The notes under the pieces: generated by a model
What the model saw: only the letters and a program-made list of their open reading frames with translations
The model's database searches: none
What the model was told of the DNA's origin: nothing
Made by a program: the position numbers and the translations under genes
Shown here: piece after piece, positions 22,339 to 55,529 of the stretch
Numbering within the stretch: the stretch's first letter is position 1
Layout of the letters: each line of letters opens with the position of its first letter
NCBI GenBank assembly: GCA_050179935.1
Contig: JBFXEQ010000004.1
Coordinates: 28,432-92,431, forward strand
Direction of reading: 5' to 3'
Source: Bacteroidales bacterium
GTDB lineage: Bacteria > Bacteroidota > Bacteroidia > Bacteroidales > UBA12077
DNA length: 64,000 nucleotides

Positions 22339-25300
22339 CTAAAACCGAATACCAATAACCAAGATATCATCCAATTGAAACTCATTGCCTTTCCAATGGT
22401 CAAATGTTTTTTCAACAATCTGGCCTTGTTCTTCCATTGGTTTGGCAGCAATTTCTGTAAATAATTTCTTCATGCCAGAACTCTTGAACTTGGTAACTGT
22501 TGGTCCACCAAATTGATCGGCATATCCATCTGAAAAAATATAAATCACATTACCAGGTTCTATTTTTATTTCATAATTTGTAAAATTCTCCTTTTCAACA
22601 TGATAAATACCTATTGGCATTCGATCAGCTTTAAACTCCTCTAAAACATTATTTTTTACCAGATACAACGAATTGTATGCTCCGGAGAATTCTAGTGTCA
22701 TTTTATTCTTATGCCAGATACATAAAGCGATATCCATTCCATCTTTTGCTTCGCCTTCTTTGCCTGTTTGATGCAAAGAAAATTTAATTTTCTCGCGCAA
22801 CAAGCTTAAAACCTGATTTGCATTAAGATTATTGGTTGTATATCGTATTATTTCGTTAAGTGCTGAAATGCCTAACATACTCATAAAAGCTCCCGGCACT
22901 CCATGTCCTGTACAATCGGCTGCAGCAAAGAACACTCTATCGTGGTCTTCGGCGATCCAGTAAAAATCGCCACTAACAATATCACGAGGGCGATAAAAAA
23001 TAAAATGATCGGCAAATGTTCTTTCAAAATGATCGCGCAGCGGAAGCATTGCTCTTTGTATTCGACTTGCGTATGTTATGCTATCAGTAATTTCTTCTTT
23101 CTGCCTTAAAATCTCGTCTCTGTTTTTAGCGAGCTCATCCCGCTGATTTTCAATCTCTTCTTTTTGCTCCTGAATCTCAATAGTGCGTTCTTTTACTTTT
23201 TGCTCCAGAACATTTTTATCATGTTGCAACTTTCTTTCACGTACTTTTGATACAATATAAAACAATGCCAACACCGCCAATGCAATTATCATGTAAAACC
23301 AAATGCTCTGAATAAACGGAGCTTTCAATGTAAAATCGAGACTTCGCTCATCGCTCATATTACCCCACAAATCCTTTGCACGAACACTTATCGAATAATC
23401 TCCGGGTTTTACAATAAGGCTTATATTAGTGCTTGTTGACCATTTAGACCAGTCGCTCATTAAGCCATCAACAAAATACTGGTACTGGGTTGAATTTTGC
23501 TTAACATAGTACGGAGCTACTATATTAAAATAAACAGCATTATTTTCGGCATCGAAAACCAAATCAGATAATTCGAAAGACAATCCTTCCTCATTAGTAA
23601 TTTGCTTAAAATAAACAGTAAAATCAGTATTTGCTTTTTCGGAAGCTTTTGAGATTTTAAATAACTGATTATTCTCTGCAATAACCCATAAATTATTATC
23701 TGAATCAGCATAAATATAGGTTATATCAGTAAATATTTTTAGAAAAACATTTTCACTCTCGTCCCATTTATTCTCATCAGAAAGGCAAACCCATTCGTTA
23801 TTCTGTTTTATCCAAGGCAATCCATATTGAGCCAGAATAAAATGTATTCTTGAATCGTTTTGCCATAGATCAGGTTTATAAGGTAAAAAACTATCCGAAG
23901 AGATAGCATGGTAATACAACCCTGACTCAAGAAACAAAACTATCTGATTATTAACACTCTGCATATAATATCGTTCGGGAAATGGAGTTTCGATGGTATA
24001 AGTTTTTAACGCTTTAGGTTCTGATTTATCATCTAGCAAAAACGAATACACAGCATTATCGCCGCCTAGCCATAAATGATAATCATCGGTTAAAGCAATA
24101 GAATAAATAGGTTCAGTAAAATCGATAAAATTATAAACAGGCACCCAATTGTTTTTATCAATTTTTATCGAAAAAACACCTTTATTGGTAGCTACGAGAT
24201 ACAAATTATTTGCAGTTTCTCTGCTGATCTGATTTATGTAACTGTTTTTAACTATTGGTTCAGCTTTATGGTTTGTGACTTGAAATAATCCACTATTGGT
24301 AGCAGCCAATATTCCGTAATCGGTAGAAATAAGTTGTTTTGTCTTTTCATTTATTCCATCAACTTTTTTAAATAAATAATTTATTGATTTTAATGTTGAT
24401 ACTGTTTTTTTTGTGTATTGTGGTTGAGTTTGAATTATTTTATTGGTTGGTGCTATCGTTTCGGCAGTATTTGTATCTTCGGATTTAGATTTTTCTGATG
24501 AACTTTCTTTTTTACCAAAAAGCCTTGAAAAAAGTTTTTTTGATGATTTTTGTTCATCAGTTTTTGCATTTATCCCTGTCTCATCAGTTGACTGTGTTGG
24601 AATAATACGAATTTTTTCTTCAACCGGTTTATTTTTAACAAGTACTTGAATATCGGCATAATCTCTTACCTGGGTTAAATAAAATAACCCATCGCTGGTA
24701 GCCACATATAATTCGTTATTATGCCAGAGTGTTGTAATTAAATTACCCTTTAGGCCGGGATAGGTAGTAAAATTCTGTATTGGTAATCGCAGATCTATTC
24801 GGCTTACTCCATACTGATGAGCTACCCACAATCCATTATTATTATCTAAAGCAAACGAATAGATCTCATCATCGGGTAATCCATTCTGATAATTAATGGT
24901 ATATACAATTTTTCCTGAATTTTTACTTACAATCTCAACACCACCAATTAGAGTGGCAAAGGCGTACAAACTATCGGATATAACTAATCCTTCGGAAAGA
25001 ATACTTCCACTAAGGTAACCATCATCATTAATGGTGTAATCGTAATATTTAATACCATCAAAAAGAAAGAGTTTATTTTCATCGGTACCCACCAAAACCT
25101 TTTCCTTATTGTATGGTAGCATAAAAAGGATTTCGTTTTTTTGAGTTAGATAACCGGTAACAATAGGAAAAAGAGTATCACTTTCAATTCGGTACAATCC
25201 TTTATCATAAACATTTATAAATGTATTTTTGGGAGTTAAAAATAATCCGGTAAATGGATTACTCATCTTAGCATACCATCTCAGAGATTTTTCAGGTTCA

Positions 25301-25767
25301 TCTAACTGATATCGGGTTATAGAATTTTCTCCATAAAAAAAGATCGTTGAACCCGAAAATATAATTTTTGTAATTACCCCTATATCAGCAGTATCTTTTG
25401 AGAGTGAAATATATTGATAAAAACCTTTCGAGTCCTTTTGAAGATATCCATAGTTATTGTTAGTTCCTACGTAAACAATATCGTTAAATGGATTTTTACG
25501 AACCACAAAAGGAATATATGGTAATTTAATAATATCCCAATTACTGCCATCGAAAATAATTATGCCCCTGCGGTTTGCAAACAGCATATTGTTTTCTTTG
25601 TCCTGACAAATTGACCAGTTTTGATTTTCTATCTCCCTGATTTCTTTGTAATGAGTAATATATGGCGTTCCGTTTTGAGCAAAAGCATATCCATAACCCA
25701 TTAAAGATAAAAGGAGAATAAATTTATAGATTTTCTTTGCTAACATATCCTTGGTATTAGAGGGCAT
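22339..25767 (-). CDS. periplasmic beta-propeller (Reg_prop)/YYY sensor fused through one TM and a coiled coil to a PP2C (SpoIIE-type) phosphatase
   Basis: 1142 aa. Signal peptide, long repeat-rich ectodomain, TM IWFYMIIALAVLALFYIV and coiled coil. The PP2C part has YASRIQRAMLP, SGDFYWI, ADCTGHGVPGA, SDGYADQFGG and DDILVIG. Confidence 0.8.
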   Translation of the reverse strand: MPSNTKDMLAKKIYKFILLLSLMGYGYAFAQNGTPYITHYKEIREIENQNWSICQDKENNMLFANRRGIIIFDGSNWDIIKLPYIPFVVRKNPFNDIVYVGTNNNYGYLQKDSKGFYQYISLSKDTADIGVITKIIFSGSTIFFYGENSITRYQLDEPEKSLRWYAKMSNPFTGLFLTPKNTFINVYDKGLYRIESDTLFPIVTGYLTQKNEILFMLPYNKEKVLVGTDENKLFLFDGIKYYDYTINDDGYLSGSILSEGLVISDSLYAFATLIGGVEIVSKNSGKIVYTINYQNGLPDDEIYSFALDNNNGLWVAHQYGVSRIDLRLPIQNFTTYPGLKGNLITTLWHNNELYVATSDGLFYLTQVRDYADIQVLVKNKPVEEKIRIIPTQSTDETGINAKTDEQKSSKKLFSRLFGKKESSSEKSKSEDTNTAETIAPTNKIIQTQPQYTKKTVSTLKSINYLFKKVDGINEKTKQLISTDYGILAATNSGLFQVTNHKAEPIVKNSYINQISRETANNLYLVATNKGVFSIKIDKNNWVPVYNFIDFTEPIYSIALTDDYHLWLGGDNAVYSFLLDDKSEPKALKTYTIETPFPERYYMQSVNNQIVLFLESGLYYHAISSDSFLPYKPDLWQNDSRIHFILAQYGLPWIKQNNEWVCLSDENKWDESENVFLKIFTDITYIYADSDNNLWVIAENNQLFKISKASEKANTDFTVYFKQITNEEGLSFELSDLVFDAENNAVYFNIVAPYYVKQNSTQYQYFVDGLMSDWSKWSTSTNISLIVKPGDYSISVRAKDLWGNMSDERSLDFTLKAPFIQSIWFYMIIALAVLALFYIVSKVRERKLQHDKNVLEQKVKERTIEIQEQKEEIENQRDELAKNRDEILRQKEEITDSITYASRIQRAMLPLRDHFERTFADHFIFYRPRDIVSGDFYWIAEDHDRVFFAAADCTGHGVPGAFMSMLGISALNEIIRYTTNNLNANQVLSLLREKIKFSLHQTGKEGEAKDGMDIALCIWHKNKMTLEFSGAYNSLYLVKNNVLEEFKADRMPIGIYHVEKENFTNYEIKIEPGNVIYIFSDGYADQFGGPTVTKFKSSGMKKLFTEIAAKPMEEQGQIVEKTFDHWKGNEFQLDDILVIGIRF

Positions 25768-31637: not shown

Positions 31638-32019
31638 ACACAAGGGCTTTACCTTGTAGCGAGAGCGAGAATTACAGCAGCATGCTGCTGTGATTCTGTG
31701 AAAGAAAAACTAACAAAGCAAAGCTCATCTCGCTTCGCTTTATCATAGGTCTTTCTGTTTTTCATATCCTCAAGCAAGCTTGGGATATTCAAAACAAAAA
31801 GCCCCTGTGCTTGCAGCACAAGAGCTTTGCTTTGTAGCGAGAGCGAGAATTACTTCGTGATTATCAAATGGAATGCTTTACAAGGTAAAGCCCGAACCGT
31901 AAAACGGTTTGGCGTTCTTTTATTTTTACCAAATCCCATAGCAAGCTTGGAATTTGGTAAAAATAAAAGCCCCTGTGCTTTCAGCACAAGGGCTTTACCT
32001 TGTAGCGAGAGCGAGAATT
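31638..32019 (-). repeat. three direct copies (about 170-bp period) of the tRNA 3' end plus its downstream hairpin
   Basis: TAGCGAGAGCGAGAATT occurs at 31657-31673, 31835-31851 and 32003-32019; the last is the real tRNA 3' end. Each copy is preceded by CACAAG(G/A)GCTTT(A/G)C(C/T)TTG. An inverted fragment GCTTTACAAGGTAAAGCCC lies near 31876. An 18-nt perfect palindrome ACAGCAGCATGCTGCTGT lies at 31674-31691. Confidence 0.7.
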
Positions 32020-32076
32020 GAACTCGCGACCTCATGATTATGAATCATGCGCTCTAACCATCTGAGCTACCTCGCC
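32003..32076 (-). tRNA. tRNA with CAU anticodon (elongator Met or lysidine-type Ile2; not initiator)
   Basis: The 74-nt reverse complement folds by hand as GGCGAGG TA GCTC AGATGGTTA GAGC G CATGA TTCATAA TCATG AGGTC GCGAG TTCAATT CTCGC TCTCGCT A. The anticodon stem lacks the three G-C pairs of initiators. The acceptor stem has G.U pairs at 1:72 and 7:66. CCA is not encoded. Confidence 0.8.
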
Positions 32077-41650: not shown

Positions 41651-42100
41651 ATGAAAGTAATAGCTATACTACATAAGCTTAGTTACCTAAAATGGGTTTT
41701 TGTATTATGGATGATTGGATTAATGGCTTATATTTTTATTTGGAGTCCCGAAAATCCGATTCAGCTTGTGGGACAAGTAATTTTTATTTCGGGAATTGCA
41801 ATGGGGCTAACTAGTTTAAGTGATACTACCAAAATTACTGAGAAGCAGGTAAGAGATTTATCAAATCCTAAAACAACAAAAAAGCTATTTGTTATTTTCT
41901 TTGTATCAATAATATTTCTTTTCGTTATAAGTTTATTTTTTCATATCCAGCGATTTATACATCCTGAAGCCAATAAATCCATTTTAAATGATTTTACAAA
42001 GTTGGGATACGACTGCCTGGTAATGGTTTTAGGATTACTTTGCCTTGTAAAACAACTGGCAGATCAGATAAAATATGTAAACAGTATGAATTCGAAGTAA
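41651..42100 (+). CDS. hypothetical four-TM membrane protein
   Basis: 149 aa. Supported by hydrophobic helices only. Confidence 0.45.
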   Translation: MKVIAILHKLSYLKWVFVLWMIGLMAYIFIWSPENPIQLVGQVIFISGIAMGLTSLSDTTKITEKQVRDLSNPKTTKKLFVIFFVSIIFLFVISLFFHIQRFIHPEANKSILNDFTKLGYDCLVMVLGLLCLVKQLADQIKYVNSMNSK

Positions 42101-42147: not shown

Positions 42148-43707
42148 TTAGTATTTAGCAAGTATTTTTAAGAACTCAGCATTTGGTTCAGTTCCATCAT
42201 TATCGGCAGAATATTGGGGTTTTAAACGGTTAACAAAATACATATCAAGTTCTTCGCTATTCTTAACCTCAATTTTGCCACGGTAGGTGCAATCGAAAAA
42301 ATCTTTAATATATTCATAAGTAACACCAGAAACATTTACACGTCCTATTTGTCCAAGCTGCTCCATTCTGGCTGCTCTATTAACAGCATCGCCCCATATA
42401 TCATAGGCGAATTTCTTTTTACCAATAACACCTGCAATTACTTCACCTGTATGAATACCAACACGCAATTGCCATACTTCCTGATTATTAGCTTTTTTCT
42501 GTTCACCATACTCTTTAATAAACTTCTGAATTTTAAGTCCTGCAATAGTTACGTCAATCGGATTACTTTTATTGGTTAGTGGTAATCCGCCAGCGCACAT
42601 ATATGCATCACCAATAGTTTTTATTTTTTCGATAAAATGGCCTTCGATAATCTCATCGAATTTCTGAAAATAAGTATTCAATTCGCCAATAAGATCATGC
42701 ACTGGCGTTTTTAATGCCAGTTTAGAAAAATCTTTAAAATCGGTAAATAAAATACTCACCATTTTATATTGCTTTGATCGGGCTGAACCTTTTTTCTTAA
42801 GCTGATTTGCAATCTCGGCAGGTAATATGTTTAGTAAAAGCTCGTCCGATTTATGCTTTTGTTCTTCAAGCAGTTGATTTGTTTTTTCGAGACTTTCAGT
42901 CAATGTAAGAAGACTTTCATTTTTAGCTTCGAGTCTTTCCTCCACTTCTTTTAACGCAGAAACATCCGACTCAATGGCTACAAATTTGATGATCTCATTT
43001 TGCTCATTAAGAATTGGTGTTAGTGTAGTTTGTATCCAGATTGGAGTTTCATAATTGGTAACCCACTTATTTTCATAAACAACGCTCTCATACCCATCTT
43101 TACATTTTTGAATTGCATCCGCTAATTTAGGATTTGTTTTTGCGTTAAAAATATCTGCTTCAAATTTTTCTTTAAACTCGCTGTAGGTAAAACCATACAT
43201 TTTTTCAAATCCCTCGTTAACCCATTCAATAACTCCACCAACACTAATAATTATAACACTATTAGCTGATCTTTTTGCAACTATCGATAATTCGCGCAAT
43301 ACTTCATGTTCAATATAAATATCATGCTGAAACTCGCTTCGGTTTAGAGCTGCATCAAATCGCAACAGCAACTCCTCTTTAGTAAATGGTTTTCGGATAA
43401 TATCTACAATACCATATTCAAAAATACGGTCTAAATTAATTACCGGCGAATATTCTGAAACTATAAGTACAGGAATGCCATGTGTTGCCCTATTTTGTTT
43501 TAACGACATTATACTGTCAATTCCACTTCTAACAAGGGTTTTAGGAAATACAATTATTACATCAGGGCTGTATTCTAAGGCTTTGTTGTATATTTCTTCC
43601 TTATTCGTTTGTATAATATGCAAATCGTCAATTTCATCTATAAGTAAATCATGTAATTGCGTGATTGTTTCGCCATTATCATCAGATACTAAAATTTTAT
43701 AACTCAT
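42148..43707 (-). CDS. receiver-like domain / PAS / coiled coil / class III adenylate cyclase
   Basis: 519 aa. Cyclase motifs VSILFTDFKDFS, KIKTIGDAYM, RVGIHTGEVIAG and YDIWGDAVNRAARME. The Lys/Asp pair is typical of adenine specificity. The N-terminal REC-like fold has ILVSDDN and IRKPF but Phe where the phospho-Asp should be (VIIVFP). Confidence 0.85.
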   Translation of the reverse strand: MSYKILVSDDNGETITQLHDLLIDEIDDLHIIQTNKEEIYNKALEYSPDVIIVFPKTLVRSGIDSIMSLKQNRATHGIPVLIVSEYSPVINLDRIFEYGIVDIIRKPFTKEELLLRFDAALNRSEFQHDIYIEHEVLRELSIVAKRSANSVIIISVGGVIEWVNEGFEKMYGFTYSEFKEKFEADIFNAKTNPKLADAIQKCKDGYESVVYENKWVTNYETPIWIQTTLTPILNEQNEIIKFVAIESDVSALKEVEERLEAKNESLLTLTESLEKTNQLLEEQKHKSDELLLNILPAEIANQLKKKGSARSKQYKMVSILFTDFKDFSKLALKTPVHDLIGELNTYFQKFDEIIEGHFIEKIKTIGDAYMCAGGLPLTNKSNPIDVTIAGLKIQKFIKEYGEQKKANNQEVWQLRVGIHTGEVIAGVIGKKKFAYDIWGDAVNRAARMEQLGQIGRVNVSGVTYEYIKDFFDCTYRGKIEVKNSEELDMYFVNRLKPQYSADNDGTEPNAEFLKILAKY

Positions 43708-43922
43708 AGATAAATGTGAATAAGGAATTGTTAATTGTTTAAAAGTATAATTTTTTTGAATAAATAAATCATTCGTTCATGCATTTTTTTAGTCCACTTG
43801 CCAAAAATGAATACGCAAATTGTCCGAATTTCAATTATACTGCTTAAATTTCATGAATAATTAAGTTAAAACTAATTTGTATTAACTTTTTTTCTAAATT
43901 TCAAGGTAAATAAAAATCGAAT

Positions 43923-45152
43923 ATGGGATATACCGTTCTGTTGATTGACCCATTAGAAAAAAATCTGGATGGCTTGAATACTAATCTCTCCAATGCATTA
44001 CCTGATTATATTTTTTTTACTATAAACGATTATACAAACTTAAATAAGCAGATTATAAATTATTCCCCAGATCTTATCATTATTGATATTGATCATACTG
44101 CAACCAACAATAATCATTTTCTCCCTGAATTGATTCAATCGGTTAATGTTCCTGTTATTGCTATATCGCAGGCAACCTCTATTGATGAAATTTTCAATAC
44201 GGGTATAATTTCTTTTATTCAAAAACCTGTTTCGGATATTGCTATAGTGTCGGCGATAAAAACTGCTGTTAAATTTATTTCAACATTTAAATCACTTGAA
44301 CAAAAACAAAACGAGATTGAGATAATAAACAAACATATTGAGGTACAGCACAATAATACATTGAAACAGAGAGACATTATAACTCAAAAAAATAGCGAGA
44401 TAATGGCCGATATAAGATATGCCAGTCGCATTCAGCGAGCCATATTACCCAATACTTCTCATTATGAAGAGCTTACAAATCAGCATTTTATTTTTCATTT
44501 ACCAAAGAGTTTTGTGAGCGGCGATTTTTATTGGATAAAAAGATATAATGACAAACTTATTTTTGCCGTTGGTGATTGCACCGGACATGGAGTTTCGGGA
44601 GCATTAATGCATATGCTGGGAACAGTGTATCTTAATAGTATAATTACCGAAAATACGTTTAAAAATGCAAGTGATATTCTGGAGCAATTGCGAAGTAAAA
44701 TTATGATATTGTTGCATCAGAAAGGGAATATGGGCGAAACTCAGGACGGAATGGATATTGCCCTTTGTATTGTTGATTGTAATAATAAGACAATTGAATT
44801 TGCTGGTGCAAACAATCCGCTTTACTTAATAAGGAATAACGAACTAATTGAATACAAGGGCGACAGAATGCCGGTTGGTATTCATATTAATTTTAATAAA
44901 TCATTTACTAACCACATAATTGAAATAAAAAGCAATGATATTATTTACCTTTTCTCAGATGGTTATGCCGATCAATTTGGAGGCGAATCGGGTAAAAAAT
45001 TCAGGTATAAAAGATTTCAGGATTTATTAATTGAAATAAATCAATTACAGATGTACAGGCAGAAAGAAGCACTCGAACGCGTATTTATTGATTGGTTAGG
45101 TTCTTTAGATCAAGTTGATGATGTACTTGTTTTTGGATTTAAAATAAAATAA
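43923..45152 (+). CDS. receiver-like domain fused to a PP2C (SpoIIE-type) phosphatase
   Basis: 409 aa. REC-like VLLIDP...PDLIIIDID...FIQKPV, then a coiled coil. PP2C motifs YASRIQRAILP, SGDFYWI, GDCTGHGVSGA, SDGYADQFGG and DDVLVFG. Confidence 0.8.
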   Translation: MGYTVLLIDPLEKNLDGLNTNLSNALPDYIFFTINDYTNLNKQIINYSPDLIIIDIDHTATNNNHFLPELIQSVNVPVIAISQATSIDEIFNTGIISFIQKPVSDIAIVSAIKTAVKFISTFKSLEQKQNEIEIINKHIEVQHNNTLKQRDIITQKNSEIMADIRYASRIQRAILPNTSHYEELTNQHFIFHLPKSFVSGDFYWIKRYNDKLIFAVGDCTGHGVSGALMHMLGTVYLNSIITENTFKNASDILEQLRSKIMILLHQKGNMGETQDGMDIALCIVDCNNKTIEFAGANNPLYLIRNNELIEYKGDRMPVGIHINFNKSFTNHIIEIKSNDIIYLFSDGYADQFGGESGKKFRYKRFQDLLIEINQLQMYRQKEALERVFIDWLGSLDQVDDVLVFGFKIK

Positions 45153-45174
45153 CTTTAGCTTTTAAATTTATAAA

Positions 45175-46920
45175 ATGATCACAAAAGCTTTTAAATATTC
45201 ATTACTCTTACTAATACTATTCTCGGAAACTATTTTTGGACAACAAATACCCGATAATATAAAGGCAGAACTTTCCTCGTACGAAGAACAAATAGCCAAG
45301 TTTAAAAACGAAGGAAACAAAAGCCTCGAATTGGAATATTCGAGTAAAGCAGCCTTTTTATGTTGGAATAATCAGGTTTTTGATCAGGCCATCAAAAATT
45401 TTGAAAATGTACTTGATATAAATAAATCACTAAATAATAACAATGGTATATTAATGGCTACCAATTATTTAGGCATGATTTACAACGAATCAGAAAAATA
45501 TCCAAAAGCCATTGAGTATTTTAAAAGTAGCATTTCAATTAGCAAATCATTAAAAAATAAGCCCAATATTGTTTCAGGATTAATTAATATAGCCCAAACC
45601 TACCAGCTATCGGGAAATTATGAGGAGTCGAATAAATCATCATTTGAGGGAATTAATTTATCAAAAGAACTCAATGATATTAAATCCTTACGAACATTTT
45701 ACGGTATTGTGGCCGACAACTATCAGAAGCTTGGTAACTCAGGTAAAAGCATCGAATATTTTGATCTTTTTGCTTCGCTCGATAAATTTATTAAAAATCA
45801 GGAAATTACCGATATTAAAAATCAGTCGGCCAGCGAGGTTAATAAAGCCCAGCAAGAAAAAGCAATAACAGAACAAGAGTTAAACAAACAAACCGATAAA
45901 CTTAAAAAAACCGAAGATTCGCTTGCTGTGGTTGAAGAGTTAACGCGTGAGCAAAAAATGCAACTCGAACTAAAAGAATCGCAAATTAAAGCACAGGAAG
46001 CCCAGCTAAAACTTGAGCGGTTATGGCGAAGCATTTTAATTTACGGATTTATAGCCATATTAATAGTTGCCGGATTACTTTTGTTTTTATACCGAAAAAT
46101 ACGAACCCAGAAATTTCAGATTGAAGATCAACGCGACAAACTTGATCTGCAGAATAAAAAAATCAACTCAAGTATTCAGTATGCACAAAATATACAGCAA
46201 GCTATTTTGCCAACATCGAAGCAATTAGACAAACATTTTGAATATTTTTTGACATACAAACCAAAAGACATTGTTTCAGGAGACTTTTACTGGTATGTTG
46301 AGTTTAATAACCGAGTTTATATTGCCTCAATTGATTGCACCGGCCATGGAGTTCCCGGAGCATTCATGTCGATGATTGGCAGCAGATTATTAAATGAAAT
46401 TGTAATTGAAAAAAACATTCTCGATCCGGCCAAGATACTTTCAACACTTAACGATAAAATTATAACTGCATTACGCCAGAACGAAACTGAAAACGAGGAT
46501 GGTATGGATGTTTGTTTACTTTGTTTCGAAGATATAAATCAGAAGAATAAAGCAATTTTTACCGGTGCAAAAAGACCATTATTGATTTATAAATCAAATA
46601 ATAAGTCTATTGAAGAGATTAAAGGCGACAGGCTGGCCATTGGCGGATCAAAAAACGAAAACAGAGATAAAGATTTTACTAGTCATTCGATAATTATAAA
46701 TAAAGGTGATATTGTATTTTTATCATCCGATGGATTAACAGACCAAAATAATGCTGAAAGAAAGCGTTTTGGTTCTCAACGATTTAATGATCTTGTAATT
46801 AATAATAGTCATAAAAATTTAACTGATCTGAAAACTATTATAGAAAGCGAACTTGAAAATTTTAAACAAGGTGAAGAGCAAAGAGATGATATAACTTTAA
46901 TTGGATTAAAAATAAAATAG
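45175..46920 (+). CDS. TPR-repeat ectodomain / TM / coiled coil / PP2C (SpoIIE-type) phosphatase
   Basis: 581 aa. Signal peptide, TPR-like repeats, TM ILIYGFIAILIVAGLLLFLY. PP2C motifs YAQNIQQAILP, SGDFYWY, IDCTGHGVPGA, SDGLTDQ and DDITLIG. Starts 22 nt after the preceding gene. Confidence 0.8.
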   Translation: MITKAFKYSLLLLILFSETIFGQQIPDNIKAELSSYEEQIAKFKNEGNKSLELEYSSKAAFLCWNNQVFDQAIKNFENVLDINKSLNNNNGILMATNYLGMIYNESEKYPKAIEYFKSSISISKSLKNKPNIVSGLINIAQTYQLSGNYEESNKSSFEGINLSKELNDIKSLRTFYGIVADNYQKLGNSGKSIEYFDLFASLDKFIKNQEITDIKNQSASEVNKAQQEKAITEQELNKQTDKLKKTEDSLAVVEELTREQKMQLELKESQIKAQEAQLKLERLWRSILIYGFIAILIVAGLLLFLYRKIRTQKFQIEDQRDKLDLQNKKINSSIQYAQNIQQAILPTSKQLDKHFEYFLTYKPKDIVSGDFYWYVEFNNRVYIASIDCTGHGVPGAFMSMIGSRLLNEIVIEKNILDPAKILSTLNDKIITALRQNETENEDGMDVCLLCFEDINQKNKAIFTGAKRPLLIYKSNNKSIEEIKGDRLAIGGSKNENRDKDFTSHSIIINKGDIVFLSSDGLTDQNNAERKRFGSQRFNDLVINNSHKNLTDLKTIIESELENFKQGEEQRDDITLIGLKIK

Positions 46921-46947
46921 TATTTTTATAGTAAATTTGTTATTAAC

Positions 46948-47451
46948 TTGAATAATAAAACTTTGCTAACATATAGAGGACCCTTTTATATTGAGCTTAT
47001 TTCGGTTTTTGGCAATAATGTCAGAAACTATACAAGTGCATATGGTAATGCAAACAAAAAGCTCTTTAGGATATTTATTGAATTATCGCAAAATGTATCT
47101 AATTATTCCGAAGATTATCATCTTGTTAATAATGAAAGTCGTATTGGAGTTGGAGAGCTGAAGCTAGTTGAGTGCGATACTCATTTTAAATTTACAACAA
47201 AAAATTTGGTAAAGAAAAGCGATAGCAAAATATTGATTAACCGCTGCGATCTTATAAATCAATCGAGTCTTATGGAATTAAGACAACTCAAAAGAGAACA
47301 ACGAATAAATTCGCCAGGCGAAAAATTTGGCGCCAGAATAGGACTAATTCAGGCAGTAATGTTATCGCAAAACAAACTTGAATATCAATGTGATGAAGTT
47401 GATGATAACTTTGCTTTTTTATCGCTTACAGTTAAAATAGATAAAAATTAA
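46948..47451 (+). CDS. SiaB-like (DUF6272) small GHKL-type protein kinase candidate
   Basis: 167 aa. TTG start, with no in-frame ATG near the N-terminus. LLTYRGPF...KKLFRIFIELSQNVSNYS matches my memory of the SiaB/DUF6272 N-terminal pattern. Positioned directly upstream of a DUF1987 gene, as in siaB-siaC. Confidence 0.6.
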   Translation: MNNKTLLTYRGPFYIELISVFGNNVRNYTSAYGNANKKLFRIFIELSQNVSNYSEDYHLVNNESRIGVGELKLVECDTHFKFTTKNLVKKSDSKILINRCDLINQSSLMELRQLKREQRINSPGEKFGARIGLIQAVMLSQNKLEYQCDEVDDNFAFLSLTVKIDKN

Positions 47452-47463
47452 TGATTATATAAT

Positions 47464-47850
47464 ATGGAAAATATTTCTATAAAAAGTTCACCTGAAACAC
47501 CTTATTTTCCTGAGGTAAATTTCGATGCATCGACCGGAATATGCGAAATAGCAGGCGAATCTTATATGGAGGAAACATATAAGTTTTATCTTCCACTTAC
47601 AACCTGGATTAAAGAATACATAGCCAATGTAAAAGGAAAATTAGAGCTTAACATTAAATTGATTTACTTAAATACCAGTTCTACTAAATGCATTTTGGAT
47701 ATTCTGGAAACCTTAAAAGATTATGAAGATAATGGTGGAGATACTAAAGTAGTTTGGTTTTATGACAAAGAAGATCCAGATATGATTGATGAAGTAGAAG
47801 ATTTTGAGGCCGAATCGGGCATTAAAATTGAAATGCGTGAACTCGTTTAA
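47464..47850 (+). CDS. DUF1987 / SiaC-like regulatory phosphoprotein candidate
   Basis: 128 aa. TPYFPEVNFDASTGICEIAGESYMEETYKFYLPLTTWIKEY and LNTSSTKCILDIL match the DUF1987 pattern as I remember it. Starts 12 nt after the kinase-like gene. Confidence 0.7.
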   Translation: MENISIKSSPETPYFPEVNFDASTGICEIAGESYMEETYKFYLPLTTWIKEYIANVKGKLELNIKLIYLNTSSTKCILDILETLKDYEDNGGDTKVVWFYDKEDPDMIDEVEDFEAESGIKIEMRELV

Positions 47851-51727: not shown

Positions 51728-52216
51728 TTATAAAAATTTGACATACACCACTTTGCCATCATTTTTATCATAAAAATCTTCGAAAAATGCTTTTTCGATA
51801 TAATTCATTTTAAGGTAAAAAGAACGAGTTGGGTGATATAATTCCTTTGAAGATGTTTCGACATAAACACCACAACCACCAATAGCTTTTATAGCTTGTT
51901 CTGTATTATCCATAAGTTCTTTACCAATACCCATTCCTCTGAAATCCTGGTGAGTAGCAATCCAATAAAGATCGAAACTATGTTTTGTACAAGGTATGCG
52001 TCCATAACAAGTGTAACCAACTACCTTACCTTCAATTTCGGCGAAGATAAAATCATAGCCACTGGCTTTGCCTGTTTCCACAGTTTCTTCGACCAAACCC
52101 ATAGCTACTTCAATTTCTTCGGTATTAAAAAAATTTGTAGATCGAACTATTTCACCAACAGCCTCGATATCAGAAGGTTTAACTTCATTTCGATATGTTA
52201 CATTATTATTTTTCAT
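51728..52216 (-). CDS. GNAT-family N-acetyltransferase
   Basis: 162 aa. Acetyl-CoA motif FRGMGIGKELM. Its start overlaps the stop of the upstream ATP-grasp gene by 4 nt. Confidence 0.75.
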   Translation of the reverse strand: MKNNNVTYRNEVKPSDIEAVGEIVRSTNFFNTEEIEVAMGLVEETVETGKASGYDFIFAEIEGKVVGYTCYGRIPCTKHSFDLYWIATHQDFRGMGIGKELMDNTEQAIKAIGGCGVYVETSSKELYHPTRSFYLKMNYIEKAFFEDFYDKNDGKVVYVKFL

Positions 52217-53181
52217 CGTTGTCCATCGTAAATTATTTCAGAGATAACTTCGTTAAAACCAACTCCTCCTTGATTGCAAGCAACAAAAAATCCAGCATCT
52301 GGCGAAATGCATGGGTTTGCATTAATTTCTAACACATAGGGGTTATTATCTTTATCTACCCGAATATCAACTCTAACATAACCACGAAGATTGAATTTAT
52401 TCCAACAATCGAGACTAATTTGCTTAACTTTTTCGAGCAATGGTTTGTCCTTTTCTGGAAAATCAAAAGTGCGTCGTGTATTTTGGTATTCGAACGAATC
52501 CTCATCCCATTTAGCTTTATAACCCAACACGAATGGTTTATCTTCGGGATATTCGTAGTATTTCATCTCGGCAGGAGGCATAACTCGTGGACCTTTTTTT
52601 CCACCCAATACAGAAATATTAAATTCACGACCATGAATATATTCTTCGATAAAAAACCCTGCATCCTTATTATTTTCGATATATTCTTTCAGTTTTGGGT
52701 CATTTCCATAAAAAACTGCATCTTCAGAAATACCTACAGAAGCATCTTCACCATATGGTTTTACAATATATCTTTTATCAGGATTTAGTTTATTAGTTTC
52801 GTTTGCAGCAAACCATTCGCCTGTAGGAATACCTGCAGCAACAAATGCTTCTTTGGCTTTCATTTTATGCGAGGTAAGGTACAATGCAAATGAGTCTGAG
52901 CCTGAAAATGGGATATCAAGACTATCGAACAATGCCGGAGCTATAAAACTTAAGAATCCCTTACCATCAACTGTTTCTACAAGGTTAAATATAAAATCAG
53001 GTTTAATTTTTAAGATTGAATCTTTTACACGTTGCATATCCAGATCAAAATCCCCCCTAAAGACTTCGTATCCAAGATTTATAAATTCTTTTTCAACTAC
53101 ATCAGCTTCTTCTAAAACATCCAATTCATCCTGCAACGCATTTTCAGATATTCGATTATGAATGATAAGTGCTCTTTTCAT
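52213..53181 (-). CDS. ATP-grasp ligase, D-Ala-D-Ala-ligase-like (paralogue 2)
   Basis: 322 aa. Ddl-like order: pre-ATP-grasp LDIPFSGSDSFALYLTSHKMKAKE, then VKPYGEDASVGIS, EEYIHGREFNISVLG and YVLEINANP. Confidence 0.75.
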   Translation of the reverse strand: MKRALIIHNRISENALQDELDVLEEADVVEKEFINLGYEVFRGDFDLDMQRVKDSILKIKPDFIFNLVETVDGKGFLSFIAPALFDSLDIPFSGSDSFALYLTSHKMKAKEAFVAAGIPTGEWFAANETNKLNPDKRYIVKPYGEDASVGISEDAVFYGNDPKLKEYIENNKDAGFFIEEYIHGREFNISVLGGKKGPRVMPPAEMKYYEYPEDKPFVLGYKAKWDEDSFEYQNTRRTFDFPEKDKPLLEKVKQISLDCWNKFNLRGYVRVDIRVDKDNNPYVLEINANPCISPDAGFFVACNQGGVGFNEVISEIIYDGQR

Positions 53182-53196
53182 TATTCTGCTTATTTT

Positions 53197-54189
53197 TTAT
53201 TTAATTCGACCTTCAGTTTTCAATCTCTTAATAGCTGCCTCCATAATAAATCCCATCAGTTGTTGGTATTCTATTCCCTTCAACCTAGATAAAATCGGCA
53301 AATCAGAATGAACCGGATGTAATCCTGCTAATGGATTTACCTCAATAAAATTACACACCCCCTTATCATCGTAGCGAACATCTACCCTGCCTCCATCAAC
53401 ACAATTGAGAATGCGCCATGAATCGAGCGCAACTTTTTCGCATTCTTTGGCTAATTTATCTTCGGCCAAATGATAATCAACAAGCTCGAGGTAATTATCT
53501 TTATTATGAAATGAGTAAACTCCTTGTTCGGCTTTATTGTTTAATAGTATCTCCATAACTCCGGCCGATCTTGCTTCGAGCCCTGAACCAATTACACCAA
53601 CTGTAAATTCGCGACCTGACAAGTATTTTTCCACCAATACTGGTTGCTTAAATTTCGATAAAAGCAACAAGCATCGTTCTTTTAGCTCCTCAATATTATT
53701 TATAACAGAGCCTGCGTAAATCCCTTTTCCAGTTCCTTCGGCTAGAGGTTTTGCAAACAACGGAAATTTTATTTTTACCTTTTCTATATCTTCGGGTTTT
53801 TCAACAACAAAGAACTCAGCTGTAGGAATACCTGCATCACGAATTACTCTTTTTGTTGTAGCCTTATCAAGTGTAAGCGCCAATGTTAATGGGCCCGAAA
53901 AGACATAAGGAATGTTCCATGCATCAAGCAATGCGGGTACTTGTGCTTCGCGACCTATACCATACATTCCTTCGCAAATATTAAACACCAGCTCCCATCG
54001 ATCGCCTTTTGCAAGACAACGTGTAAGTTCCTTGACATTCCCAATTCTTACTGTATCAAATCCTAATTTTTTCAATGTATTGTCGATGGCATCAATCGTA
54101 TCTTCCTTATCGAACTCAGCAGCTTCTTCTTTTGTAAAACCTTCTTTAAGATAATCGCTTTGCAAATCGTAGGTTATTCCTATTCTCAT
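53197..54189 (-). CDS. ATP-grasp ligase, D-Ala-D-Ala-ligase-like (paralogue 1)
   Basis: 330 aa. GREAQVPALLDAWNIPYVFSGPLTLALTLDKATTK, FAKPLAEGTGKGI, EKYLSGREFTVGVIG and FIEVNPLAG. Confidence 0.75.
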   Translation of the reverse strand: MRIGITYDLQSDYLKEGFTKEEAAEFDKEDTIDAIDNTLKKLGFDTVRIGNVKELTRCLAKGDRWELVFNICEGMYGIGREAQVPALLDAWNIPYVFSGPLTLALTLDKATTKRVIRDAGIPTAEFFVVEKPEDIEKVKIKFPLFAKPLAEGTGKGIYAGSVINNIEELKERCLLLLSKFKQPVLVEKYLSGREFTVGVIGSGLEARSAGVMEILLNNKAEQGVYSFHNKDNYLELVDYHLAEDKLAKECEKVALDSWRILNCVDGGRVDVRYDDKGVCNFIEVNPLAGLHPVHSDLPILSRLKGIEYQQLMGFIMEAAIKRLKTEGRIK

Positions 54190-54204
54190 GTTGATTTTTG
54201 GTAT

Positions 54205-54242
54205 TAAAAAACTTCCCGAAAGATATTTCGCTTTCAGGAAGT
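54205..54242 (-). terminator. strong intrinsic terminator or attenuator between kamA and the ATP-grasp genes
   Basis: On the minus strand: ACTTCCTGAAAG-8 nt-CTTTCGGGAAGT (12 bp including one U.G) followed directly by TTTTTT. It ends about 16 nt before the ATP-grasp start codon. Confidence 0.65.
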
Positions 54243-54266
54243 AATTTATAAATAATTTATCAAATC

Positions 54267-55529
54267 TTACTCTTTTTGATTTGGATAATAGAATGTTTTT
54301 CCTTCGTAGTTTTTCAAAACTACTTGTTCATCGTCGATGCTTTGCAAATAGTCTGGTAATAAAGGAATTTTACCACCACCGCCAGGGGCATCGATTACAT
54401 AATGCGGAATTGCATAACCCGAAGTAAAACCACGTAATCCTTTTATTATCTCAAGCCCTTTTGAAACAGGTGTTCTAAAGTGAGCAGATCCAGGTATTGG
54501 ATCACATTGATACAAATAATAAGGTCGTACCCTTGCTTTTAGCAATTTGTGAGTTAATTCTTTAAATATCGAAACTTCATCATTAACACCTTTAAGCAAT
54601 ACTGTTTGGCTTCCTAATGGAATACCTGCATCTGCTAAACGGGTACATGCAAAATGAGTTTCTGGTGTCAACTCATCAGGATGAGTAAAGTGAATGCTAA
54701 TCAATAAAGGATGATATTTTTTAAGGATTTTTAAAAGCATAGGGGTAATACGCTGAGGTAATACGACAGGCACTTTTGTACCAATACGGATTATTTCAAC
54801 ATGCTCAATAGCTCTAAGTTTTGATAATAAATACTCAAGTCGCGCATCGGATAACGTTAAAGGATCGCCACCTGAAATTAGCACATCACGAACCTTCGTA
54901 TTATTACGTATATAATCGATTGCAATATCCCATTCGTTAATACTCGAATGACATTTGTCTTTTTTCGAAACCATGTGCGAACGGGTACAGTATCTGCAAT
55001 AGGTTGAACAAAAACCAGTAACTAAGAACAGAACACGGTCGGGATATCTGTGTACTATATGGTTTACAGGGCTATAATTCTCTTCGCCAAGAGGATCAGC
55101 TTTTTCCTCCGGAGTGGTAATTAACTCATCAAAAACAGGAACAACTGATTTTCTTATAGCCTGATTTGAATTGTTTGGATCAAGTAAACTTGCATAATAA
55201 GGAGTAATCCTTATGGGAAGATTAAATCCATTATCAGTTGGTTTAATCTCATCATCGGATAAATGCAAGATTGTTTGCAACTGGGCATAACTTGTGTAGC
55301 TATTTTGTATTTGCCAACGCCAGTTGTTCCATTCGTTGAGAGAAGTGCCGGGAAAATGTCGAGCTAAAAATTGGAGAGTTCTTTCATTTACGGGAAAATC
55401 CGGTTTACTCTGTTTTTCAGAAGTGAGTTTTAAATTTATATTTTGCAAATAGTTTAACCCACTCGGAGGTTCTACATTTGCTTCCTCATATGATATAGAG
55501 GACTCTGTATTCATTTTTCCTGAATTCAT
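54267..55529 (-). CDS. kamA: lysine 2,3-aminomutase (radical SAM, PLP-dependent)
   Basis: 420 aa. Radical SAM cluster CSTYCRYCTR, WRWQ motif, YQCDPIPG, and VIDAPGGGGK containing the putative PLP-binding Lys. Closely collinear with the clostridial KamA sequence as I remember it. Confidence 0.85.
   Translation of the reverse strand: MNSGKMNTESSISYEEANVEPPSGLNYLQNINLKLTSEKQSKPDFPVNERTLQFLARHFPGTSLNEWNNWRWQIQNSYTSYAQLQTILHLSDDEIKPTDNGFNLPIRITPYYASLLDPNNSNQAIRKSVVPVFDELITTPEEKADPLGEENYSPVNHIVHRYPDRVLFLVTGFCSTYCRYCTRSHMVSKKDKCHSSINEWDIAIDYIRNNTKVRDVLISGGDPLTLSDARLEYLLSKLRAIEHVEIIRIGTKVPVVLPQRITPMLLKILKKYHPLLISIHFTHPDELTPETHFACTRLADAGIPLGSQTVLLKGVNDEVSIFKELTHKLLKARVRPYYLYQCDPIPGSAHFRTPVSKGLEIIKGLRGFTSGYAIPHYVIDAPGGGGKIPLLPDYLQSIDDEQVVLKNYEGKTFYYPNQKE

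What the first reader, a model, noticed from the sequence alone, without database searches (positions are those of the whole stretch)
42148..47850. SiaB/SiaC-type partner switch with two PP2C inputs, paired with an adenylate cyclase instead of a diguanylate cyclase
What the sequence shows. Four plus-strand genes sit at 22-, 27- and 12-nt spacing:
- REC-like-PP2C (409 aa)
- TPR-TM-PP2C (581 aa)
- a SiaB-like small kinase (167 aa)
- a DUF1987/SiaC-like protein (128 aa)

A 215-bp region separates them from a divergent gene encoding a REC-like/PAS/class III cyclase.

What is known. In Pseudomonas aeruginosa, the SiaA phosphatase and SiaB kinase set the phosphorylation state of SiaC. Unphosphorylated SiaC binds and activates the diguanylate cyclase SiaD.

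What differs here. There is no GGDEF gene, no STAS/RsbV, no RsbW and no sigma factor in the neighbourhood. The only nucleotide-second-messenger enzyme is the cyclase. It has intact metal, transition-state and Lys/Asp adenine-specifying residues (KIKTIGD, YDIWGD, NRAARME), so it should make cAMP.

My inference is a phospho-dependent partner switch that integrates at least two sensory phosphatases to gate cAMP synthesis. To my knowledge this wiring has not been described. It would be notable in a phylum where c-di-GMP signalling is scarce and cAMP signalling is poorly understood.
Basis: partly seen in the sequence, partly recalled or inferred. Interest (0 to 1): 0.85.

Follow-up and report, generated by a model that had tools for sequence, protein, structure and literature searches.

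The report
Orphan SiaABC switch beside adenylate cyclase
A genuine SiaA/SiaB/SiaC-type phospho-switch with two sensor phosphatases lies next to an intact adenylate cyclase, but comparative evidence shows they are two separable units that are neighbours in only one Bacteroidales clade, so the proposed switch-to-cAMP wiring stays an unproven and weakened hypothesis.

Summary
The SiaC-like protein keeps the phospho-acceptor Thr (T71, YLNTSS). SiaB passes NCBI's SiaB-family cutoff. Both PP2Cs match the SiaA catalytic domain. The cyclase has all six class III residues, with Lys/Asp for ATP.

The claimed pairing with the cyclase rests on position alone, and three tests weaken it:
- In about 20 Bacteroidales genomes the same PP2C/PP2C/SiaB/SiaC cassette sits among housekeeping genes, with no cyclase nearby.
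- Eight of nine more distant cyclase homologs sampled lack the cassette, and most of them keep the cdd/amidase/fmt/ribBA backbone. Cassette plus ilvE behaves as an indel beside the cyclase.
- Effectors of SiaC elsewhere carry the SiaD-type SiaC-binding stalk motif. This includes two real SiaC-adjacent class III cyclases found in metagenomes. The window's cyclase, and every other ORF in the 64 kb, scores at noise.

The window's SiaC subfamily never has such an effector in cis (0 of 28 metagenome loci and 0 of 61 genome loci, against 47 of 56 informative loci for other subfamilies).

Most likely this is an orphan partner switch whose target is unknown, next to an independently regulated pseudo-receiver/PAS adenylate cyclase. 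I put direct SiaC-to-cyclase control at about 0.2.

The parts
47464..47850 (+). SiaC-family regulatory phosphoprotein (128 aa). The predicted phospho-acceptor is Thr71 (codon 47674-47676) in YLNTSS.
   Evidence: Pfam SiaC 131.6 bits. PDB 6KKO/6K4F SiaC at E=5e-17 with the Thr aligned. Y68, N70, T71 and S72 are invariant in 18 Bacteroidales orthologs.
46948..47451 (+). SiaB-family small GHKL-type protein kinase (167 aa from a TTG start; a gene caller used a start 15 nt downstream).
   Evidence: DUF6272 at 1.8e-25. NCBIfam SiaB_fam_kinase scores 105.7 bits, above its cutoff of 85. It always lies directly upstream of SiaC in relatives. DUF6272-SiaC fusions exist elsewhere.
45175..46920 (+). SiaA-like sensor phosphatase (581 aa): signal peptide, extracytoplasmic TPR, coiled coil, one TM helix, then a cytoplasmic PP2C.
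   Evidence: SpoIIE 86.6 bits and TPR_12 60.7 bits. NCBIfam SiaA 174.6 bits on the PP2C domain only, and a FimS-like N-terminal match. It is present in every cassette with enough sequence. The TM helix and signal peptide were read directly from the sequence.
43923..45152 (+). REC-PP2C phosphatase (409 aa). Its degenerate receiver domain still has the phospho-acceptor Asp, Ser87 and Lys109.
   Evidence: SpoIIE 64.1 bits, SiaA PP2C 186.2 bits, Response_reg 25.2 bits, below cutoff. The CheY-D57 equivalent is Asp in 37 of 39 orthologs and K109 in 39 of 39. The gene is absent from one subclade: L005, 7, 9, 10, 11, 13, 17, 32.
43708..43922 (.). 215-bp divergent intergenic region between the cyclase and the cassette.
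   Evidence: Only AT-rich, promoter-like conservation across 29 syntenic loci. No conserved palindrome. The sigma-70-type scan gave no more sites than shuffles.
42148..43707 (-). Pseudo-receiver / PAS / coiled-coil (cyclase-transducer-like) / class III adenylate cyclase (519 aa).
   Evidence: Pfam. All six catalytic residues, with Lys/Asp specificity. The CheY-D57 equivalent is Phe here and never Asp in 32 orthologs. No SiaD-type stalk motif.
42229..42777 (-). Cyclase homology domain (aa 311-493).
   Evidence: Guanylate_cyc 165.7 bits. Aligned to AC9 C1 and C2.
42958..43260 (-). PAS sensor domain of the cyclase (aa 150-250).
   Evidence: PAS_9 45.3 bits; TIGR00229 46.1 bits.
43360..43695 (-). 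Pseudo-receiver domain of the cyclase (aa 5-116).
   Evidence: Response_reg 30.6 bits. The acceptor Asp is replaced.
22339..25767 (-). Possible third input: a 1142-aa beta-propeller (Reg_prop) / Y_Y_Y / PP2C protein. Its catalytic domain is closer to the REC-PP2C than the two cassette phosphatases are to each other.
   Evidence: phmmer 260 bits against 165 bits. Pfam Reg_prop, Y_Y_Y and SpoIIE. Its link to the cassette is inferred only.

Best explanation
The interval holds two separable signalling units.

Unit 1 is an orphan SiaA/SiaB/SiaC-type partner switch. The SiaB-like kinase phosphorylates SiaC on Thr71. Two sensor phosphatases remove the phosphate. One is a membrane TPR-PP2C that reads an extracytoplasmic cue. 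The other is a REC-PP2C, probably controlled by an unidentified histidine kinase through its retained Asp. A third PP2C about 20 kb away may also contribute. By analogy with P. aeruginosa, unphosphorylated SiaC binds and switches an effector. In this Bacteroidota-type subfamily that effector is not a SiaD-like stalk protein encoded in cis, and it is unknown.

Unit 2 is a homodimeric class III adenylate cyclase. It is regulated through its own PAS domain and a non-phosphorylatable pseudo-receiver, and it belongs to a conserved housekeeping backbone (ribBA-fmt-amidase-cdd-cyclase).

The two units became neighbours once, in one Bacteroidales clade, and have stayed so through general synteny.

Shown: the domains, residues and conservation patterns. 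Inferred: the phosphorylation chemistry, the direction of signal flow, and the independence of the cyclase.
For: - Domain and residue evidence.
- The cassette is a conserved 3-4 gene unit in 61 genomes.
- It occurs in at least four other contexts flanked by sdh genes, aminopeptidase P, PPDK, PEPCK, PlsY, TrmD and similar genes, with no signalling output nearby.
- Cyclase homologs at 41-53% identity lack the cassette in 8 of 8 sampled loci (L063, L065, L067, L069, L071, L192, L193, L194). Six of these keep cdd and/or the glucosaminidase gene.
- L193 and L194 read panB-rlu-cyclase-cdd. L070 reads panB-rlu-[Lnb_N-ilvE-SiaC-SiaB-PP2C-PP2C]-cyclase-cdd. The cassette plus ilvE is therefore an indel.
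- A SiaC-binding stalk HMM built from 30 GGDEF proteins scores real SiaC-adjacent cyclases at 39.6 and 19.3 bits. The best window or Bacteroidales ORF scores 6.7 bits, and the decoy maximum is 6.9.
- A stalk effector is adjacent in 47 of 56 informative loci of other SiaC subfamilies, but in 0 of 28 loci at 45% identity or more, and in 0 of 61 genome loci.
Against: - The adjacency persists in about 33 species-level genomes, down to 47% cyclase identity, with only one break inside the clade (L033).
- The cyclase is the only signalling enzyme within 10 kb.
- SiaC-to-class-III-cyclase wiring does exist in nature (L156, L183).
- TrmD lies next to SiaC in L052 and next to the cyclase in L069. This hints that the adjacency could be older than the clade.
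- A stalk-independent interface, such as the pseudo-receiver or the PAS-CHD coiled coil, cannot be excluded.
- Whole-genome co-occurrence could not be tested.
Confidence: 0.55

Rival explanations
1. Unphosphorylated SiaC binds the neighbouring pseudo-receiver/PAS cyclase and gates cAMP synthesis, so two or three sensory phosphatases converge on cAMP.
For: - Divergent adjacency is retained across about 33 genomes.
- There is no other candidate effector in cis.
- The pseudo-receiver has lost its phospho-acceptor and could serve as a protein-docking domain.
- Other lineages do pair SiaB/SiaC with class III cyclases (L156, L183).
- SiaC keeps the NTS motif and the acidic alpha-3 face used to bind a basic helix. 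This comes from the alignment read against PMC8457831.
Against: - Adjacency is confined to one clade that is syntenic for the flanking genes too.
- The cassette persists without the cyclase, and the cyclase without the cassette.
- The cyclase has no SiaC-binding stalk motif, whereas the genuine SiaC-linked cyclases have one.
- The pseudo-receiver state does not track cassette presence. P0180 and P0187 have Asn with no cassette, and P0169 has Asp with a cassette.
- No relative of this cyclase was seen from the 6.7 Mb or 5.1 Mb cassette-bearing contigs among the top 120 hits of two searches. This is weak evidence.
Confidence: 0.2
2. SiaC acts in trans on an effector encoded elsewhere in the genome, for example a histidine kinase, a sigma-54 activator or another dimeric coiled-coil enzyme. 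That effector may carry a diverged SiaC-binding helix. The cyclase is irrelevant to the switch. This is a more specific version of the best explanation.
For: In other lineages the stalk element is fused to LytS-type and HisKA-type kinases and to a sigma-54 activator, as well as to GGDEF and cyclase domains. The cassette is conserved in many unrelated genomic contexts. SiaC is highly conserved, at 60-97% identity, which implies several constrained partners.
Against: No stalk-bearing protein occurs in the 64-kb window or in any of the 71 Bacteroidales loci. The rest of the genome could not be searched.
Confidence: 0.3
3. The cassette has no separate effector. SiaC is a decoy or buffer substrate, or the phosphatases have other substrates that carry the output.
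For: There are several PP2C paralogs per genome. Tandem SiaB-SiaC arrays without effectors occur in related metagenome loci: L078, L119, L165, L171.
Against: There is no precedent in characterised SiaABC or RsbVW-type systems. The NTS motif and the acidic helix of SiaC, which are used for effector binding in P. aeruginosa, are strictly conserved.
Confidence: 0.07

Closest known systems
Pseudomonas aeruginosa SiaABCD (PA0172-PA0169)
   Same: A PP2C phosphatase, a small SiaB kinase and a DUF1987/SiaC phosphoprotein with the same YLNTSS phospho-Thr. The phosphatase-kinase-SiaC gene order is the same. The membrane-anchored sensor phosphatase is the analog of SiaA.
   Different: There is no SiaD, meaning no GGDEF gene and no protein with the RISDRYQ-type SiaC-binding stalk, in cis. 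There are two phosphatases (possibly three) instead of one, with REC and TPR sensor modules instead of the SiaA N-terminus. SiaB and SiaC score below the NCBIfam equivalog cutoffs, so they are family-level members only.
SiaD-stalk::class III cyclase chimeras found here in metagenomes (L156, L183)
   Same: A SiaB/SiaC pair lies next to a class III cyclase predicted to be active.
   Different: Those cyclases are short (about 285-330 aa) and consist of the SiaC-binding stalk plus the catalytic domain. In L156 the cyclase sits directly after SiaC on the same strand. In L183 it abuts SiaC convergently. The window's cyclase is a REC*-PAS-coiled-coil-CHD protein without that stalk, and it is transcribed divergently from the far end of the cassette.
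HptB-HsbR-HsbA partner switch of P. aeruginosa and RsbU/RsbV/RsbW-type switches
   Same: A response-regulator-type PP2C (REC-PP2C) sets the phosphorylation state of a small STAS-like protein that changes binding partners.
   Different: The kinase here is a separate SiaB-type protein, not an RsbW or HsbR kinase domain. The switch protein is SiaC/DUF1987, which is related to STAS only by fold. No sigma or anti-sigma factor lies nearby.
PAS- or REC-regulated class IIIa/b adenylate cyclases with a cyclase-transducer element
   Same: Sensor domains, a coiled coil with the KSDxLLxNILP element, and a CHD with Lys/Asp specificity. More distant family members (P0222, P0230, P0239) are canonical response-regulator cyclases.
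   Different: The receiver has lost its phospho-acceptor in the window's clade, so its input is unknown.

Membership tests
SiaABC(D) partner-switch system | SiaC/DUF1987 phosphoprotein with the conserved N-T-S phospho-acceptor motif | tested here: met
   PF09345 scores 131.6 bits against a cutoff of 24.5. T71 aligns with the P. aeruginosa SiaC phospho-Thr motif. The motif is invariant in orthologs. The NCBIfam SiaC equivalog cutoff (150) is not reached (92.8 bits), so this is family-level membership, not an ortholog.
SiaABC(D) partner-switch system | SiaB-family kinase encoded immediately upstream of SiaC | tested here: met
   NF038262 SiaB_fam_kinase scores 105.7 bits, above its cutoff of 85. 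The equivalog NF038264 scores 60.5 bits, below 225. The 12-nt spacing is seen. The pairing is conserved in all loci with sequence, and fusions exist. Kinase activity was not tested.
SiaABC(D) partner-switch system | SiaA-type PP2C phosphatase | tested here: met
   Both PP2C domains match NF038263 SiaA positions about 390-658, at 186 and 175 bits. The GDF, DCTGHG, DG-D, SDG and DD metal motifs are visible in both sequences. The full-length SiaA equivalog cutoff (700) is not met because the sensor modules differ.
SiaABC(D) partner-switch system | SiaD: an adjacent diguanylate cyclase (GGDEF) effector | tested here: not met
   There is no GGDEF domain or GG[DE]EF motif in the window or in the 61 related loci.
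SiaC effector (SiaD-like) | N-terminal helical stalk carrying the SiaC-binding motif (..K-[IVM]-S-D-[RK]..; SiaD S82/Q86 contact SiaC T68) | tested here: not met
   The motif is defined in PMC8457831. An HMM from 30 SiaC-adjacent GGDEF proteins scores the window cyclase and all window ORFs at 4.7 bits or less, and all Bacteroidales-locus ORFs at 6.7 or less. The decoy maximum is 6.9. The L183 and L156 cyclases score 39.6 and 19.3 bits.
SiaC effector (SiaD-like) | Conserved linkage of the effector gene to SiaB/SiaC across relatives | tested here: not met
   The cassette occurs without the cyclase in about 20 genomes. The cyclase occurs without the cassette in 8 of 9 sampled divergent homologs.
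Class III adenylate cyclase | Two metal Asp, substrate Lys and Asp, and transition-state Asn and Arg in one chain (active homodimer, ATP-specific) | tested here: met
   FTD, IGD, IKTIG, YDIWGD and VNRAARM align to AC9 C1/C2. Guanylate_cyc scores 165.7 bits. Enzymatic activity was not tested.
Two-component response regulator (receiver domain) | Phospho-acceptor Asp (CheY D57), with T/S87 and K109 | tested here: not met
   This row is for the cyclase. The D57 equivalent is Phe in the window and S, N, F, T, G or C in 32 orthologs, never Asp.
Two-component response regulator (receiver domain) | Phospho-acceptor Asp (CheY D57), with T/S87 and K109 | tested here: met
   This row is for the REC-PP2C. 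Asp is present in the window and in 37 of 39 orthologs, S/T87 in 39 of 39 and K109 in 39 of 39. The acidic pair is degenerate (D-P) in the window, and the Pfam score is below cutoff. Phosphorylation was not tested.

The most novel reading that the evidence does not exclude
SiaC controls the neighbouring cyclase through a stalk-independent interface, such as the dead receiver domain or the PAS-CHD coiled coil. A Thr-phosphorylation partner switch fed by two or three sensory phosphatases would then set cAMP levels in these Bacteroidales. This would be a second, convergent way of coupling SiaABC to a class III cyclase, alongside the stalk-cyclase chimeras seen in L156 and L183.
Probability: 0.2. 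Interest if true: 0.75.

Novelty: new variant of a known kind. Interest (0 to 1): 0.5.

Why it matters
SiaABC has been characterised only in Pseudomonas, as a controller of the diguanylate cyclase SiaD. The full-text searches here found no paper describing it outside that setting.

This window shows a widespread Bacteroidales version that has several sensor phosphatases and no effector in cis. Its output is an open question.

The comparison also shows that the SiaC-binding stalk is a portable element. Next to SiaB/SiaC it is fused not only to GGDEF domains but also to class III cyclases, two classes of histidine kinase and a sigma-54 activator. This extends the suggestion in PMC8457831 that DUF1987 proteins regulate adjacent proteins. 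It also gives a sequence test for candidate SiaC targets.

If the neighbouring cyclase did prove to be the target, it would link Ser/Thr phospho-switching to cAMP in a phylum where neither is well understood.

Tried and rejected
1. REC-REC similarity. The canonical REC of the cassette-less L067 cyclase is 33-39% identical to the REC of the REC-PP2Cs. I considered a shared histidine kinase or a domain duplication. I rejected this because the best pair scores 100 bits, while the same REC scores 86 bits against unrelated PDB receivers such as PleD.

2. Pseudo-receiver as a marker of SiaC control. Rejected. Loss or retention of the acceptor Asp does not track cassette adjacency.

3. The extra coiled coil between PAS and CHD as a cassette-specific insertion. 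Rejected. Cassette-less homologs (P0180, P0187, P0230) have it as well, and only the 491-aa clade lost it.

4. Conserved regulatory palindrome in the 215-bp spacer. None found. The promoter and terminator scans gave no more than shuffles.

5. SiaC-cyclase fusion proteins. None among the 150 best representatives of 3384 SiaC clusters. Only SiaB-SiaC fusions, SiaC-SiaC tandems and one SLT-SiaC fusion were seen.

6. Automatic pattern scans with diverse SiaC alignments failed. My first hand-written pattern was mistyped and found nothing. The corrected pattern worked.

7. Whole-genome co-occurrence. 

8. TrmD as a trace of an older cyclase-cassette-trmD order. This is a single gene in a single genome, and no wider synteny was found.

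9. Multimer modelling. Not attempted. The structure tool returns no interface metrics and accepts only native sequences.

Full report
**Observation.**
- Pfam and NCBIfam confirm every domain.
  - The minus-strand protein has Response_reg (just above cutoff), PAS, an HNOBA-like helix and Guanylate_cyc (1e-48).
  - The two plus-strand phosphatases have SpoIIE/PP2C domains that match the catalytic part of NCBI's SiaA model at 1e-54 and 3e-51. One also has a weak receiver domain. The other has TPR repeats, a signal peptide and one TM helix.
  - The 167-aa protein is DUF6272 and passes the SiaB-family cutoff (105.7 bits against 85).
  - The 128-aa protein is SiaC/PF09345 (1.4e-38).
- The SiaC-like protein matches solved P. 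aeruginosa SiaC structures at E=5e-17. Its YLNTSS Thr (T71) aligns with the same motif in the P. aeruginosa protein. That motif holds T68, the phospho-acceptor named in PMC7647112 and PMC8457831.
- The cyclase domain aligns to mammalian AC9 C1 and C2. Both metal Asp, the Lys/Asp adenine pair and the Asn/Arg transition-state pair are in one chain. An active, ATP-specific homodimer is therefore a fair prediction.
- No GGDEF, STAS, RsbW or sigma gene lies within about 10 kb, and no GG[DE]EF ORF occurs in the window.

**Refinements.**
- Aligned to CheY, the cyclase's receiver lacks the phospho-acceptor. It is Phe here and never Asp in 32 orthologs, so it is a pseudo-receiver.
- The REC-PP2C keeps Asp57 in 37 of 39 orthologs, and Ser/Thr87 and Lys109 in all 39. 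It may still be a phosphorelay target.
- A third SiaA-like PP2C lies at 22339-25767. It is a 1142-aa propeller/Y_Y_Y sensor, and its catalytic domain is closer to the REC-PP2C than the TPR-PP2C is.

**Is the cyclase-cassette adjacency conserved?** A scan of one genome per species returned 61 Bacteroidales loci encoding this SiaC subfamily, at 32-97% identity. I mapped homologs of all window genes onto them.
- Where SiaC is about 64% identical or more (plus L043), the cyclase is adjacent.
- In those same loci cdd lies on the cyclase side, and ilvE and the M3 peptidase lie on the SiaC side. The whole neighbourhood is syntenic, so the adjacency carries little independent weight.
- In about 20 loci with SiaC at 50-61% identity, the REC-PP2C/TPR-PP2C/SiaB/SiaC cassette is intact, but no cyclase lies within 6 kb upstream or 10 kb downstream.
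- Those cassettes sit in at least four other contexts. The flanking genes are succinate dehydrogenase genes and aminopeptidase P; a cupin, an ADP-ribosylglycohydrolase, PPDK, PEPCK and PlsY; or TrmD, a sulfatase, PorP and others.
- None of these neighbours is a signalling output.

**Reverse test.** The REC-PAS-cyclase architecture extends to about 41-53% identity in many Bacteroidales.
- Of nine divergent homologs whose contexts I read, only the 59% one (L070) has the cassette.
- The other eight (L063, L065, L067, L069, L071, L192, L193, L194) do not.
- Six of those eight still have cdd and/or the glucosaminidase gene next to the cyclase. In four of them (L063, L069, L193, L194) fmt and ribBA follow as well, as in the window.
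- L193 and L194 read panB-rlu-cyclase-cdd-amidase-fmt-ribBA. L070 reads panB-rlu-[Lnb_N-ilvE-SiaC-SiaB-PP2C-PP2C]-cyclase-cdd-amidase.
- The cyclase therefore belongs to a conserved backbone, and the cassette together with ilvE behaves as an indel beside it.

**What marks a SiaC effector?** I sampled the SiaC family without reference to its neighbours, using a hand-made degenerate DNA pattern. This gave 120 metagenome loci.
- Thirty-four have a GG[DE]EF-motif gene with the stalk signature next to SiaB/SiaC.
- These SiaD-like proteins share an N-terminal helix motif (..Y.RLL[KR]Q.RR.TK[IVM]SD[RK]..).
- This motif is the SiaC-binding motif seen in the SiaC-SiaD crystal structure, where SiaC T68 contacts SiaD S82/Q86 in RISDRYQ (PMC8457831).
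- Three loci from lineages remote from the window have a class III cyclase hit beside SiaB/SiaC.
  - In L156 the cyclase follows SiaC on the same strand, in the SiaD position.
  - In L183 it abuts SiaC convergently.
  - Pfam confirms Guanylate_cyc in both, at 89.5 and 102 bits.
  - The third, L079, has only a truncated cyclase fragment upstream of a stalk-GGDEF gene.
- A stalk HMM built only from 30 GGDEF proteins scores the L183 cyclase at 39.6 bits and the L156 cyclase at 19.3 bits. Reversed-sequence decoys reach 6.9 bits at most.
- SiaC-to-class-III-cyclase wiring is therefore real elsewhere, built by fusing the stalk to a cyclase domain.
- The same stalk also precedes LytS-type and HisKA-type histidine kinases and a sigma-54 activator directly downstream of SiaC.

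**Applying that test to the window.** No ORF in the 64-kb window scores above 4.7 bits with the stalk HMM. No ORF in the 71 Bacteroidales loci scores above 6.7 bits. Both are at decoy level.
- The KSDELLLNILP segment of the window cyclase lacks the hydrophobic residue before Ser that the stalk motif has. From my own knowledge, that segment looks like the general cyclase-transducer element of class IIIa/b cyclases.
- A stalk-bearing effector is adjacent in 35 of 38 informative metagenome loci where SiaC is under 35% identical to the window's, and in 12 of 18 at 35-45%. It is adjacent in 0 of 28 loci at 45% or more, and in 0 of 61 genome loci.
- The window's SiaC thus belongs to a subfamily that is systematically orphan.

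**Interpretation.** The adenylate-cyclase call stands too.
- The link between them is positional. It is explained by one juxtaposition event retained by synteny, and it fails both the conservation test and the effector-motif test.
- It is not excluded.
  - The adjacency has survived in about 33 species-level genomes.
  - The cyclase is the only signalling enzyme nearby.
  - A stalk-independent interface is conceivable.
  - TrmD beside SiaC in L052 and beside the cyclase in L069 hints weakly at an older linkage.
- I rate direct control of this cyclase by SiaC at about 0.2. I rate an orphan switch with an unlinked or unknown effector, beside an independently regulated cyclase, at about 0.55.

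**Prior art.** Full-text searches found SiaABC work only in Pseudomonas, always with SiaD as the effector. One paper uses the term DUF1987, and it speculates that such proteins regulate adjacent proteins. No paper found couples a partner switch of this type to a class III cyclase.
- The Bacteroidales orphan cassette is therefore a new variant of a known kind.
- The modular stalk, including the stalk-cyclase chimeras, appears to be undescribed in the held library.

**Limits.**
- All phosphorylation steps, enzyme activities and signal directions are inferred from homology.
- Whole-genome co-occurrence and multimer modelling could not be done with the tools and caps available.
- The nine cyclase contexts and the 120 metagenome loci are samples, not censuses.
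- Many metagenome contigs are short.

Noticed in passing
L072-L191 (metagenome loci), e.g. L099:1742-2590(-), L115:384-1214(+), L132:5350-6189(-), L167:3963-4997(+), L178:7878-9176(+), L091:3-1754(-), L129:2-724(-): The SiaD-type SiaC-binding stalk is a portable N-terminal element. Directly downstream of SiaC it is fused to LytS-type histidine kinases, HisKA kinases (one with PAS, one hybrid) and a sigma-54 activator, as well as to GGDEF domains. SiaABC-type switches therefore appear to control several classes of dimeric signalling enzyme.
   Followed up: partly
L156:1661-2665(-) and L183:3313-4188(+): Two short class III cyclases (stalk plus CHD, predicted active, with Lys/Thr-type specificity residues) lie adjacent to SiaB/SiaC in lineages remote from the window. 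They are genuine candidates for SiaC-controlled cAMP synthesis.
   Followed up: partly
window 22339-25767 (-): A third SiaA-like PP2C (1142 aa) with a Reg_prop beta-propeller and a Y_Y_Y sensor. Its catalytic domain is closer to the REC-PP2C than the two cassette phosphatases are to each other. It is a possible extra input to SiaC.
   Followed up: partly
P0249, P0268, P0284, P0342 (fusions); P0261, P0291 and others (tandems); L078, L119, L165, L171: DUF6272(SiaB)-SiaC fusion proteins, SiaC-SiaC tandem proteins, one SLT-SiaC fusion (P0386), and tandem arrays of SiaB-SiaC pairs all exist. The family numbers 3384 clusters at 50% identity.
   Followed up: partly
L192:11183-13042(-): In one cassette-less relative, the gene next to cdd and the cyclase encodes a cNMP-binding domain fused to a class II fumarase (Lyase_1 plus FumaraseC_C). 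It is a possible direct metabolic cAMP effector. Large TPR-HisKA kinases lie nearby in L192 and L193.
   Followed up: no
window 51728-55529 (-): A cluster of lysine-2,3-aminomutase, two D-Ala-D-Ala-ligase-like ATP-grasp enzymes and a GNAT acetyltransferase. It looks like a pathway for a beta-lysine-derived compound, such as an osmolyte or a small peptide.
   Followed up: no
window 41651-42100 (+): A 149-aa multi-TM protein with no Pfam hit lies between cdd and the cyclase. It is present only in the closest relatives (L002, and split in L003), so it is a recent insertion into the backbone.
   Followed up: partly
P0222, P0227, P0230, P0239 (about 541 aa): More distant members of the cyclase family have fully canonical receiver domains (DD...D-x-x-MP...T...KP). 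The family seems to have started as true response-regulator cyclases and to have lost phospho-acceptance repeatedly.
   Followed up: partly
L009 (JBKHIH010000011.1): This contig is labelled Thiohalospira sp. (Gammaproteobacteria), but it is collinear with the Bacteroidales loci and 64-85% identical to them. It is probably mis-binned.
   Followed up: no
window 32003-32076 (-): A single tRNA gene is the only Rfam match in the window at gathering threshold.
   Followed up: no
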